Program-made: the position numbers and the translations under genes | The notes under the pieces: model-generated | What the model was told of the DNA's origin: nothing | The model's database searches: none | Seen by the model: the letters and a program-made list of their open reading frames with translations, nothing else | Sequence record: NC_052657.1 | Direction: 5' to 3' (one strand) | Source of the DNA: Escherichia phage muut | Length of the DNA stretch: 64,000 bases | Shown: one piece after another, positions 8,643 through 8,799 of the stretch | Position numbering within the stretch: position 1 is the first letter of the stretch | Layout: each line of letters starts with the position of its first letter

Positions 8643-8799
8643 ATAATAAGTACACCACTGTAAGAAGCCTCAATGTGCTATTGACAGTTAACCAAGTCTA
8701 CTCCTTGGATGGTGTTATTTGGTGCAGAGAGATGGTAACGATCCATCCTTTCTACCTTTTCAGGGTAGCACTAATCCGTCTCAGCTATCTCTGCAAATT

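What the first reader, a model, noticed from the sequence alone, without database searches (positions are those of the whole stretch)
8692..8768. Three evenly built 5-bp/7-nt hairpins in a 157-nt spacer of the tRNA array
Between tRNA-Leu(UAG) and tRNA-Pro lie CCAAG-tctactc-CTTGG, GATGG-taacgat-CCATC and CTACC-ttttcag-GGTAG. The stem and loop sizes mimic tRNA arms but no acceptor pairing or T-loop consensus exists. They may be a decayed tRNA or processing signals.
Basis: seen in the sequence. Interest (0 to 1): 0.35.

Follow-up and report, generated by a model that had tools for sequence, protein, structure and literature searches.

The report
Missed tRNA-Phe plus conserved spacer RNA
Two of the three hairpins are simply the arms of an ordinary, already annotated phage tRNA-Phe gene on the opposite strand. 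The third belongs to a small, conserved, apparently undescribed structured RNA that occupies a tRNA-sized slot in the tRNA gene arrays of several phage groups.

Summary
The window comes from a phi92-like coliphage (Justusliebigvirus). Its tRNA array is read on the minus strand.

**The hairpins and the spacer.** The three hairpins exist exactly as described, and three in 157 nt is more than chance (9 of 20,000 shuffles). The "157-nt spacer" is not a spacer, though.
- ARAGORN and Rfam (49.2 bits) call tRNA-Phe(GAA) at 8720-8794(-).
- Hairpin 2 is its T arm and hairpin 3 is its anticodon arm.
- It has a perfect 7-bp acceptor stem, A73 and an encoded CCA.
- Only its T loop is unusual (AUCGUUA, A54/U58).
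- GenBank relatives annotate it; phi92 flags it as a pseudogene.

**Hairpin 1.** Hairpin 1 (8692-8708) lies in the true 77-nt Phe-Leu spacer. Alone it is at chance level (8% of shuffles). Comparison shows it is helix P2 of a roughly 65-nt three-way-junction RNA.
- The RNA is conserved in Justusliebigvirus, Mydovirus, Certrevirus, a Serratia Vequintavirinae phage, T4-like Erwinia phages and metagenomes.
- 96% of pair cells are paired, against 74% in shuffles, and 9 of 16 pairs carry compensatory changes.
- It has no Rfam match, no homologue in the T4 tRNA region, and no bacterial counterpart found.

**Interpretation.** The RNA is most likely cut out of the tRNA precursor as a small stable RNA, analogous to T4 rnaC/rnaD. 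Its function is unknown.

The parts
8720..8794 (-). tRNA-Phe(GAA) gene, 75 nt including the encoded CCA. Acceptor 5' strand 8788-8794, acceptor 3' strand 8724-8730, A73 at 8723, CCA at 8720-8722.
   Evidence: ARAGORN. Rfam RF00005 49.2 bits, E 1.1e-8. The minimum-energy fold is a cloverleaf, -23.8 kcal/mol, z -2.64. Annotated as tRNA-Phe in ESCO9, JLBYU50, inny, ESCO8 and KKP_3264, and as a tRNA-Phe pseudogene in phi92.
8731..8747 (-). GAUGG-AUCGUUA-CCAUC, with a non-canonical A54/U58 T loop.
   Evidence: Sequence; tRNA model alignment. The KpS11 orthologue has GAAGG-UUCGAUA-CCUUC, which gives a 54/58 swap plus one compensated stem pair.
8752..8768 (-). CUACC-CUGAAAA-GGUAG, anticodon GAA.
8652..8715 (-). 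Conserved three-way-junction RNA that fills the Phe-Leu spacer, from the first to the last pair of P1. The covariance-model match spans 8645-8720.
   Evidence: Covariance model R1 scores 92.7 bits at 8645-8720(-), the only strong copy in the window; the next-best hit is 14.9 bits, E 0.76. RNAalifold consensus structure and covariation.
8710..8715 (-). P1 5' strand (ACACCA). It pairs with 8652-8657 (UGGUGU).
   Evidence: In other lineages the helix becomes CUCCCU/AGGGGG, UUCCUU/AGGGAA-like or AUUCCG/CGGUAAU. Its U-G pairs work only on this strand.
8692..8708 (-). CCAAG-GAGUAGA-CUUGG.
   Evidence: Nine different stem sequences across lineages keep the 5-bp stem and 7-nt loop. All five pairs show double changes in the model-fitted alignment. 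The loop has invariant first G and last A and a variable middle.
8688..8691 (-). J2/3 linker UUAA. Positions 2-4 are invariant; position 1 is U in all but Salmonella phage 19.
   Evidence: Alignment A3.
8658..8687 (-). P3/P3b arm. CUGU-CAAU-AGC-ACAUUGAG-GCU-UCUU-ACAG, the near-invariant core of the element.
   Evidence: P3 appears as CUGG/CCAG, CUGU/ACAG and CCGG/CCGG. P3b changes from A-U to C-G in POP15, CR3 and L036. The core motif occurs once in the window.
8652..8657 (-). P1 3' strand (UGGUGU).
8643..8651 (-). AU-rich single-stranded tail ACUUAUUAU, directly abutting G1 of tRNA-Leu(UAG).
   Evidence: Corresponding tails are ACUUAUAAU in KNP2 and Salmonella phage 19 and AAUAAUA in POP15. 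The role as a cleavage linker is inferred.
8558..8642 (-). tRNA-Leu(UAG), the downstream neighbour. Its 5' maturation would define the 3' end of the element.
   Evidence: The processing step is inferred.
8800..8875 (-). tRNA-Pro(UGG), upstream of tRNA-Phe and separated from it by 5 nt.
8110..8128 (-). Terminator-like hairpin plus T run after tRNA-Ile. Probable end of the transcription unit that contains the element.
   Evidence: Consensus scan. Not tested.
9475..9504 (-). Nearest upstream sigma-70-like promoter match (TTGACA-18-TAGAGT), ahead of tRNA-Gly.
   Evidence: Consensus scan. Not tested.

Best explanation
**What is there.** The interval between tRNA-Pro and tRNA-Leu(UAG) holds two genes read on the minus strand.
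1. A tRNA-Phe(GAA). Hairpins 2 and 3 are its T arm and anticodon arm. It is a complete cloverleaf with an unusual T loop (A54/U58 instead of U54/A58).
2. A roughly 65-nt structured non-coding RNA that fills the remaining 77-nt spacer. Hairpin 1 is its helix P2. The RNA is a three-way junction made of:
   - a closing helix P1;
   - P2, a 5-bp stem with a 7-nt loop whose sequence is free to vary;
   - a conserved UUAA linker;
   - an irregular arm P3/P3b, whose internal loop (CAAY/UCUU) and 8-nt terminal loop (ACAYUGAG) are almost invariant across phage families.

**Proposed mechanism.**
- Inferred from position: the RNA is transcribed as part of the polycistronic tRNA precursor. It starts 2-4 nt after the CCA of the upstream tRNA and ends in an AU-rich tail that abuts the next tRNA. 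The enzymes that mature its neighbours would therefore release it: 3' trimming or RNase E cleavage after the upstream CCA, and RNase P cleavage at the downstream tRNA. This is how the T4 small stable RNAs rnaC and rnaD arise.
- Inferred more weakly: the invariant P3 arm is the working surface, recognised by a protein or RNA partner that is conserved among enterobacterial hosts or these phages. P1 and P2 serve as scaffold.

**Shown versus inferred.** The genes, the structure, its conservation and its strand are shown. Transcription, excision, stability and partner binding are inferred.
For: **tRNA-Phe**
- ARAGORN calls it, Rfam tRNA scores 49.2 bits against a gathering score of 29, and the minimum-energy fold is a cloverleaf.
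- It is annotated in relatives.
- It is invariant in the six Justusliebigvirus sequences aligned, while the spacer has 6-7 variable columns.
- Its T stem and the 54/58 positions changed in a paired way relative to the KpS11 orthologue.

**Spacer RNA: distribution**
- blastn of the spacer found matches inside the tRNA arrays of KNP2, Kashira, Cronus and Salmonella phage 19.
- Further members came from 63 phage records, Certrevirus and metagenomes L032, L034 and L036.
- There is one copy per genome.

**Spacer RNA: structure**
- RNAalifold independently predicts P1, P2, P3 and P3b.
- On the MAFFT alignment 96.1% of cells are paired, against 73.7% in shuffles (0 of 500 reach it) and 35-53% for slid partners. 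Nine of 16 pairs have double changes.
- On the model-fitted alignment 99.6% are paired and 10 of 16 pairs have double changes.
- Six of nine lineages fold into this exact structure as their single-sequence minimum-energy fold.
- Five U-G cells and essentially no A-C cells fix the RNA on the tRNA-sense strand.

**Spacer RNA: slot behaviour**
- It fills the whole gap between tRNAs: Ile to Pro in POP15 (71 nt) and CR3 (70 nt), Tyr to Glu in L036 (75 nt), and Phe to Leu here (77 nt).
- It directly precedes a tRNA in KNP2 and Salmonella phage 19 and directly follows tRNA-Pro in Kashira.
- No promoter or terminator match lies in the spacer. The nearest promoter-like and terminator-like sites bracket the unit Gly...Ile.
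Against: - There is no expression or end-mapping data, so transcription, excision and stability are all inferred.
- The fold is not unusually stable. Z-scores run from -0.2 to -1.8.
- The family is small: about nine independent lineages, all from phages of Enterobacterales. Shuffle controls ignore relatedness, so covariation statistics are inflated to an unknown degree.
- P1 is short (4-6 bp) and its register differs in Cronus and CR3.
- No partner is known.
- Most other tRNA junctions in the same array are only 5-16 nt, so the element is clearly not needed for processing in general. That says nothing positive about a trans-acting role.
- tRNA-Phe: the phi92 authors flagged it as a pseudogene. 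An A54/U58 T loop is very rare, so functionality is not proven.
Confidence: 0.65

Rival explanations
1. Hairpin 1 and its spacer are a functionless, decaying tRNA remnant.
For: - The layout resembles a tRNA without a D arm: closing stem, a 5-bp/7-nt arm, a 4-nt linker, a second arm continuous with the closing stem, all in a tRNA-sized slot.
- The same array holds other non-canonical tRNA-like genes at 8324-8400 and 10825-10906.
- KNP2 carries an obvious T-arm remnant nearby.
Against: - The 30-nt core is near-identical across different phage families, while the flanking sequence cannot be aligned.
- The helices are maintained by compensatory changes. Neutral decay does not do that.
- No tRNA model hit at E<=10 in the window or in four other lineages.
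Confidence: 0.05
2. It is a cis-acting processing or folding element of the polycistronic precursor. It would be a structured punctuation mark that positions RNase E or RNase P, or insulates neighbouring tRNAs from misfolding. It would have no role after excision.
For: - It always lies between or next to tRNAs, starts just after a CCA and ends in an AU-rich tail typical of RNase E sites.
- It occurs once per array.
Against: - The flanking tRNAs differ between lineages: Phe/Leu, Ile/Pro, Tyr/Glu, Pro/-, Asp/CDS. It is therefore not tailored to a particular neighbour.
- Other junctions in the same array work with 5-16-nt spacers.
- Near-invariance of 30 nt, including loop bases, is more than a spacer or insulator needs.
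Confidence: 0.15
3. It is a signal that acts on transcription or at the DNA level. Candidates are an internal promoter (TTGAGG ... TATAAT-like), a boxB-boxA or put-like antitermination RNA acting in cis on RNA polymerase, or a recombination or homing-endonuclease target.
For: - KNP2 and Salmonella phage 19 read TGAGGC-N17-TATAAT.
- A variable hairpin followed by single-stranded UUAAC loosely recalls the order boxB-boxA (rrn boxA UGCUCUUUAACAA, from my own knowledge).
- Arrays in this genus are rearranged and carry HNH genes.
Against: - The promoter scan finds nothing in the spacer. The window has 19-nt hexamer spacing, and the -10-like box would start transcription inside the next tRNA.
- Only 6-7 of 12 boxA positions match, and half of those lie inside the base-paired P2 stem.
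- U-G pairs and compensatory changes indicate a single-stranded RNA of the tRNA sense, not duplex DNA.
- The element sits mid-array rather than next to a promoter.
Confidence: 0.08
4. Hairpin 1 is a chance hairpin in an AT-rich spacer.
For: 8% of shuffled spacers contain a hairpin with a 5-bp stem and 7-nt loop. The background density is about 1.9 per kb outside tRNAs. The folding z-score is only -1.7.
Against: Homologous hairpins with nine different stem sequences, the same geometry and the same position relative to a conserved core occur in about nine lineages.
Confidence: 0.02

Closest known systems
Phage-encoded tRNA-Phe(GAA) genes: annotated tRNA-Phe of Justusliebigvirus genomes, and the Klebsiella phage KpS11 (Mydovirus) orthologue
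   Same: - Identical gene at the same array position in relatives.
- The KpS11 tRNA-Phe shares the acceptor stem GCAGAGA/UCUCUGC, the D arm, the GAA anticodon loop, A73 and CCA.
   Different: - The T loop is AUCGUUA here and UUCGAUA in KpS11, so U54/A58 is swapped to A54/U58, together with one compensated T-stem pair.
- Among the array tRNAs whose T loops I read, it is the only one that departs from UUCRANY.
- phi92 flags it as a pseudogene.
Phage T4 small stable RNAs rnaC (species 1) and rnaD (species 2)
   Same: Non-tRNA RNAs encoded inside a phage tRNA cluster and directly abutting tRNA genes (T4 annotation). From established T4 literature (my own knowledge), they are co-transcribed with the tRNAs, matured from the tRNA precursor, and still have no known function.
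   Different: - No sequence or structure homology: model R1 scores at most 9.9 bits anywhere in the T4 tRNA region.
- The T4 RNAs are 119 and 139 nt; this element is about 65 nt.
- rnaD ends in a tRNA-like ...CACCA, whereas this element has no CCA.
- Expression of the present element has not been shown.
Functional spacers of E. coli tRNA operons (3'ETS-leuZ and the metZWV internal spacers, which act as sRNA sponges; my own knowledge, not tested here)
   Same: A transcribed spacer of a polycistronic tRNA precursor that has a function of its own after processing.
   Different: - The E. coli spacers act through Hfq-dependent base pairing with known sRNAs. No target is known here.
- No similarity to E. 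coli genomes was found.
tRNAs without a D arm (such as metazoan mitochondrial tRNA-Ser) and non-canonical tRNA-like genes in the same array
   Same: Same order of parts: closing stem, an arm with a 5-bp stem and 7-nt loop, a 4-nt linker, and a second arm whose 3' strand runs straight into the closing stem. The gene at 10825-10906(-) in this window has this layout and still scores as a tRNA.
   Different: - No U33 or purine-37 pattern in the P2 loop, no T loop, no CCA.
- The closing stem has 4-6 bp rather than 7.
- The second arm is 30 nt with an internal loop.
- No tRNA model hit.

Membership tests
tRNA (Rfam RF00005), for hairpins 2 and 3 (8720-8794, minus strand) | Covariance-model score above the curated threshold | tested here: met
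   49.2 bits against a gathering score of 29, E 1.1e-8. ARAGORN calls tRNA-Phe gaa.
tRNA (Rfam RF00005), for hairpins 2 and 3 (8720-8794, minus strand) | Cloverleaf: 7-bp acceptor stem, D arm, anticodon arm (5 bp, 7-nt loop with U33 and purine 37), T arm (5 bp, 7-nt loop), discriminator base and CCA | tested here: met
   - Acceptor GCAGAGA/UCUCUGC.
- D stem GCUG/UAGU, with two G-U pairs.
- Anticodon arm CUACC-CUGAAAA-GGUAG.
- T arm GAUGG-AUCGUUA-CCAUC.
- A73 followed by CCA.
tRNA (Rfam RF00005), for hairpins 2 and 3 (8720-8794, minus strand) | Canonical T loop U54-U55-C56-R57-A58 | tested here: not met
   The loop is A54-U55-C56-G57-U58. The KpS11 orthologue has the canonical loop. Positions 55-57 are kept and 54/58 are swapped. 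This feature is near-universal rather than strictly defining, so it does not remove the gene from the family.
tRNA (Rfam RF00005), for hairpins 2 and 3 (8720-8794, minus strand) | Aminoacylation and use in translation | not testable with these tools
   Only indirect support: the gene is invariant in the six genus sequences aligned while the spacer varies.
tRNA, for the spacer element (8645-8720, minus strand) | Match to a tRNA model, or a cloverleaf fold | tested here: not met
   No Rfam family at E<=10 in the window or in four other lineages. ARAGORN makes no call there. The consensus fold is a three-way junction.
T4 rnaC/rnaD small stable RNAs | Sequence or structure homology | tested here: not met
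   Model R1, run without filters on T4 67000-75000, scores at most 9.9 bits and never on rnaC or rnaD.
T4 rnaC/rnaD small stable RNAs | Encoded within, and directly abutting, the genes of a phage tRNA cluster | tested here: met
T4 rnaC/rnaD small stable RNAs | Accumulates as a stable RNA processed from the tRNA precursor | not testable with these tools
   No transcript data were available.
Intrinsic terminator, or sigma-70 promoter cassette | G+C-rich hairpin followed by a U run; or -35 and -10 hexamers spaced 16-18 nt apart | tested here: not met
   No terminator-like or promoter-like site lies in 8643-8719. Hairpin 1 is followed by UUAAC, not by a U run.
Any described RNA family in Rfam 15 (ribozymes, riboswitches, sRNAs, antitoxin RNAs) | Covariance-model match | tested here: not met
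   No hit overlapping the element at E<=10 in five lineages.
rrn or lambda-type boxB-boxA antitermination site | Single-stranded boxA consensus (GCUCUUUAACAA, from my own knowledge) next to a hairpin and close to a promoter | tested here: not met
   Only UUAAC is conserved. The upstream boxA positions lie in the covarying P2 stem. The element is mid-array.

The most novel reading that the evidence does not exclude
The spacer element is a previously undescribed trans-acting phage RNA, perhaps descended from a tRNA that lost its D arm. It would have spread horizontally between the tRNA arrays of unrelated phage families because it does something specific in enterobacterial hosts. One possibility is that it titrates or decoys a host factor that acts on tRNAs, such as a tRNA-targeting defence nuclease or a processing or modification enzyme. 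Another is that its invariant loop docks onto a tRNA anticodon: the loop's only variable positions read UUG or CUG, both leucine codons, followed by a purine. That is an observation, not a test.
Probability: 0.2. Interest if true: 0.75.

Novelty: new variant of a known kind. Interest (0 to 1): 0.5.

Why it matters
**tRNA-Phe.** This part is housekeeping. It corrects a missed gene. It also flags a rare natural A54/U58 T loop that could be used to probe how far the T-loop reverse-Hoogsteen pair tolerates a swap.

**Spacer RNA.** This is the interesting part.
- Phage tRNA arrays are now seen as counter-defence and translation-support modules. The non-tRNA RNAs embedded in them have gone unexplained since T4 species 1 and 2 were sequenced in the 1970s.
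- This is a second, unrelated RNA of that kind. It is short, has a well-supported structure and a 30-nt invariant surface, and is shared by Vequintavirinae, Stephanstirmvirinae and a T4-like genus.
- Together these properties make it a tractable handle. It can be deleted, mutated with compensating changes, and used as bait in cultivable coliphages such as phi92 and the BASEL-collection phages.

Tried and rejected
**Rfam.** Lenient scans of the spacer and of four homologous loci gave nothing on the element.

**T4 rnaC/rnaD homology.** Rejected.

**Pattern scans**
- Patterns of 16-19 specified bases were run against IMG/VR, metagenomes and GTDB genomes.
- Beyond the known genera, only three new metagenome variants turned up (L032, L034, L036).
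- Every other match scored 24 bits or less with the model, mostly across the pattern alone. These were L019, L020, L022, L025-L030, L033, L035 and L038-L043. I treat them as chance.
- No bacterial counterpart was found.

**E. coli genomes.** blastn of the spacer found no match. The database is so large that short complementarity would not be reported, so this says little about base-pairing targets.

**Promoter reading.** TTGAGG...TATAAT was rejected on spacing, position and covariation.

**boxA-like reading of UUAAC.** Rejected.

**RyhB resemblance.** From memory, the core resembles the RyhB seed (CACAUUG...CUUCCAG). In most lineages the loop reads CACACUG, and the resemblance is in the sense orientation, not antisense. 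I did not pursue it.

**108-aa ORFs.** The ORFs next to the element in Cronus and in the window's array share no evident similarity on reading their translations. No comparison tool was run.

**Literature.** Searches found no description of this motif. The 2023 catalogue of 10,006 candidate viral structured RNAs (PMC10690425) could contain it, but I could not check.

**Thermodynamic stability.** It does not single out the element.
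Full report
**Source and setting.** A 3.1-kb stretch around the finding is 99.3% identical to Escherichia phage vB_EcoM_ESCO9 and 98% identical to phi92 (Stephanstirmvirinae, Justusliebigvirus). 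ARAGORN finds 15 tRNA genes between 8242 and 11279, all on the minus strand.

**Checking the observation.** The three perfect hairpins with 5-bp stems and 7-nt loops are at 8692-8708, 8731-8747 and 8752-8768, as stated. Three of them in the 157 nt between tRNA-Leu(UAG) and tRNA-Pro is not a chance density. Only 9 of 20,000 shuffles reach three, and 21 of the window's 140 such hairpins lie inside called tRNAs.

The interval is not a spacer, however. ARAGORN calls tRNA-Phe(GAA) at 8720-8794(-), and the Rfam tRNA model scores 49.2 bits there (E 1.1e-8, gathering score 29).

**Hairpins 2 and 3 belong to tRNA-Phe.** Read on the minus strand, the gene is:

GCAGAGA-UA-GCUG-AGACGGAU-UAGU-G-CUACC-CUGAAAA-GGUAG-AAAG-GAUGG-AUCGUUA-CCAUC-UCUCUGC-A-CCA

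- It has a perfect 7-bp acceptor stem, a 4-bp D stem, U33-GAA-A37, a 4-nt variable loop, a 5-bp T stem, A73 and an encoded CCA.
- Hairpin 3 is the anticodon arm and hairpin 2 is the T arm.
- The unconstrained minimum-energy fold is the cloverleaf (-23.8 kcal/mol, z -2.64).
- The gene is annotated as tRNA-Phe in ESCO9, JLBYU50, inny, ESCO8 and KKP_3264, and as a tRNA-Phe pseudogene in phi92. This part is already known.

**The T loop of tRNA-Phe.** The loop is AUCGUUA, while every other array tRNA whose T loop I read has UUCRANY. The closest orthologue outside the genus is the tRNA-Phe of Klebsiella phage KpS11. It shares the acceptor stem, D arm and anticodon loop but has GAAGG-UUCGAUA-CCUUC. 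The window's gene therefore differs by a compensated stem pair and by a swap of U54/A58 to A54/U58.

The gene is invariant in the six Justusliebigvirus sequences aligned, while the adjacent spacer has 6-7 variable columns. Together with the paired changes, this argues for a maintained gene rather than a decayed one. Charging cannot be tested here.

**Hairpin 1, viewed alone.** It lies in the true 77-nt spacer (8643-8719). By itself it is unremarkable: 8% of shuffled spacers contain such a hairpin, and the spacer's folding z-score is -1.7. Within the genus the only informative fact is that the two substitutions falling in the hairpin hit the loop (GAGUAGA versus GAGAAUA) and leave the stem intact.

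**Hairpin 1, viewed comparatively.** blastn of the spacer alone found weak matches inside the tRNA arrays of phages from other genera:
- Klebsiella phage KNP2 (Mydovirus);
- Serratia phage Kashira (Vequintavirinae);
- Erwinia phage Cronus (a T4-like Roskildevirus);
- Salmonella phage 19.

Aligning them showed a near-invariant core, UUAAC-UGG-CAAY-AGC-ACAYUGAG-GCU-UCUU-CCAG. It is preceded in every lineage by a hairpin of the same geometry as hairpin 1 but with a different sequence.

More members came from several searches:
- a consensus blastn: 63 records, about 50 of them Justusliebigvirus, plus Mydovirus, Kashira, Pectobacterium phage POP15 and Erwinia phages;
- a Certrevirus query: CR3, CR8, PBES 02, DU_PP_I and DU_PP_IV;
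- degenerate-pattern scans of IMG/VR and metagenomes: L021 (= CR3), L032, L034 and L036.

The pattern scan of 185,579 bacterial and archaeal species genomes gave only chance matches. E. coli genomes gave nothing.

**Structure of the spacer RNA.** I aligned thirteen distinct sequences with MAFFT (A3). RNAalifold, given no hint, predicts four helices:

| Helix | Description | Variants seen |
|---|---|---|
| P1 | closing helix | ACACCA/UGGUGU here; CUCCCU/AGGGGG and others elsewhere |
| P2 | hairpin 1 | stems CCAAG, AGUCG, UCCGG, GUUCG, CUCGG, CCCGG, GGUCG, UCUGG and an imperfect CCUUC |
| P3 | base of the second arm | CUGG/CCAG, CUGU/ACAG, CCGG/CCGG |
| P3b | upper part of the second arm | AGC/GCU, becoming CGC/GCG in three sequences |

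Support for these helices:
- 96.1% of pair cells are standard pairs, against 73.7 +/- 2.2% when the 3' partners are shuffled (0 of 500 shuffles reach it) and 35-53% when partners are slid by 1-3 columns.
- Nine of 16 pairs show double changes, and the covariation score is 0.55 against 0.14.
- After re-alignment to a covariance model (R1), the numbers are 99.6% paired and 10 of 16 pairs. The caveat is that this alignment is fitted to the structure.
- Six of nine lineages adopt exactly this fold as their single-sequence minimum-energy structure, and in the window it is the centroid.
- The non-Watson-Crick pairs are U-G, never A-C. This places the RNA on the tRNA-sense strand and argues against a duplex-DNA signal.
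- One-nucleotide indels in Cronus, CR3 and Salmonella phage 19 exclude a conserved reading frame.

The shuffle control ignores relatedness and there are only about nine independent lineages. I take the structure as well supported but not proven to R-scape standard.

**Coordinates in the window (minus strand).**

| Part | Coordinates | Sequence |
|---|---|---|
| P1 | 8715-8710 with 8657-8652 | ACACCA / UGGUGU |
| P2 (hairpin 1) | 8708-8692 | CCAAG-GAGUAGA-CUUGG |
| J2/3 | 8691-8688 | UUAA |
| P3 | 8687-8684 with 8661-8658 | CUGU / ACAG |
| Internal loop | 8683-8680 and 8665-8662 | CAAU / UCUU |
| P3b | 8679-8677 with 8668-8666 | AGC / GCU |
| Terminal loop | 8676-8669 | ACAUUGAG |
| AU-rich tail | 8651-8643 | ACUUAUUAU |

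The P2 loop keeps only its first G and last A; its middle varies freely. The P3 arm is almost invariant, loop bases included.

**Genomic behaviour.** There is one copy per phage. The element behaves like a gene cassette occupying a tRNA slot.
- It fills the entire gap between tRNA-Ile and tRNA-Pro in POP15 (71 nt) and CR3 (70 nt), between tRNA-Tyr and tRNA-Glu in L036 (75 nt), and between tRNA-Phe and tRNA-Leu here (77 nt).
- It directly precedes a tRNA in KNP2 and Salmonella phage 19 and directly follows tRNA-Pro in Kashira.
- In Cronus it sits 70 nt after tRNA-Asp.
- In all lineages but Cronus it begins 2-4 nt after an upstream ...CCA.
- The flanking tRNAs differ between lineages and the flanking sequence cannot be aligned. 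Conservation therefore belongs to the element itself.
- Its presence in a T4-like genus as well as in rV5/phi92-like phages implies horizontal spread.

In the window, the consensus scan finds no promoter-like or terminator-like site inside the spacer. The nearest minus-strand promoter-like site lies upstream of tRNA-Gly (9504-9475). A good terminator-like hairpin follows tRNA-Ile (8128-8110). The inferred transcription unit therefore runs Gly-Gln-Pro-Phe-element-Leu-Met-(tRNA-like)-Ile.

**Mechanism, with its uncertainty.** From position I infer that the element is transcribed within the tRNA precursor and released by the maturation of its neighbours. The steps would be cleavage or trimming after the upstream CCA, RNase E-type cleavage in the AU-rich tail, and RNase P cleavage at G1 of the next tRNA. 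That would yield a 65-75-nt RNA.

The contrast between a freely varying but always paired P1/P2 scaffold and a sequence-invariant P3 arm suggests that P3 is a recognition surface for a conserved partner. None of this is shown. There are no expression data, the fold is not unusually stable, and no partner is known.

I put about 0.9 on the structural identifications. I put 0.4-0.5 on 'released stable RNA with a trans-acting role', and the overall confidence score of 0.65 reflects both. The main rival is a purely cis-acting processing or insulating element. Against it: the changing neighbours, the 5-16-nt spacers that suffice elsewhere in the array, and the invariance of loop bases.

**Comparison with what is known.** No Rfam 15 family matches the element at E<=10 in five lineages. 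The closest analogues in kind are T4 rnaC and rnaD, small stable RNAs annotated inside the T4 tRNA cluster. The model finds no homologue anywhere in that region (9.9 bits at most). The element works like those RNAs at best; it is not a member of their family.

Its layout matches a tRNA without a D arm, and a tRNA-like gene of that layout exists in the same array at 10825-10906. An ancient tRNA origin is therefore possible but undetectable. Four literature searches found no description of the motif. It could still be hidden among the 10,006 unnamed candidates of PMC10690425.

**Verdict.** Its non-canonical T loop is a minor curiosity. It nevertheless turns out to be one helix of a conserved, covarying and apparently undescribed small RNA of phage tRNA arrays. 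Interest is moderate (0.5): the RNA is real and tractable, but the family is small and its function is unknown.

Noticed in passing
window 8321-8400 (minus strand): Unannotated tRNA-like sequence between tRNA-Met and tRNA-Ile. It has an anticodon-arm-like UAUGG-CUCCAAA-CCAUA (CCA = Trp), a T-arm-like GGGGG-UUCGAUU-CCUC, and ends in ...GCUGCCA, but its D region is aberrant and carries an extra hairpin. ARAGORN does not call it. The only hit is a weak tRNA-Sec model match (22.4 bits, E 0.39). The phi92 locus tags skip t016 at this position.
   Followed up: partly
window 10825-10906 (minus strand): Rfam tRNA match of 38.6 bits, above the gathering score. ARAGORN does not call it, and it is unannotated in ESCO9. 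It folds with a 7-bp acceptor stem, no D arm, an anticodon arm CCUGA-CUUCUAA-UCAGG (UCU = Arg), a long variable region, a canonical T arm and CCA. It may be a tRNA-Arg(UCU) without a D arm.
   Followed up: partly
window 8736-8742 (minus strand), T loop of tRNA-Phe: The loop is AUCGUUA, where the Klebsiella phage KpS11 orthologue has UUCGAUA. This is an apparent swap of the 54/58 reverse-Hoogsteen partners (U..A to A..U), fixed in all six Justusliebigvirus sequences aligned.
   Followed up: partly
window 8110-8128 (minus strand): Strong terminator-like hairpin AGCCUCC-UUAUC-GGAGGCU followed by UUUU, after the last tRNA (Ile). The weak Rfam RyhB match at 8103-8157 (25 bits, E 0.16) probably reflects only this terminator.
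   Followed up: no
GenBank records MG065639, MG065645, MG065656, MG065689: Records labelled 'Campylobacter phage' (A150, A145, C3, A110a; host C. jejuni; about 146 kb) are 97.9% identical to this E. coli Justusliebigvirus tRNA array. They are probably mislabelled or contaminant genomes.
   Followed up: no
L006 642-717 (ESCO8), L018 823-898 (KKP_3264), L003 553-729 (JLBYU50): Array content varies within the genus. ESCO8 and KKP_3264 carry an extra tRNA-Met between tRNA-Leu(UAG) and tRNA-Met. JLBYU50 has a 177-nt gap there. Some relatives have an HNH endonuclease gene inserted in the array.
   Followed up: no
L008 490-584 (KNP2), L011 392-571 (Salmonella phage 19), L034 253-495: In these lineages a further shared stretch lies between tRNA-Phe and the element. 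It contains a T-arm-like GCAGGUUCAAGUCCUGU and ends in ...GCAGAGAACCA. It may be a tRNA remnant or a second non-canonical RNA.
   Followed up: no
window 10279-10406 and 10907-11086 (minus strand): Other long spacers of the array contain further perfect hairpins with 5-bp stems and 7-nt loops (starts at 10300, 10361, 10949, 10987), plus strong sigma-70-like promoter matches (10946-10918, 10806-10777). I did not examine whether they are conserved.
   Followed up: no
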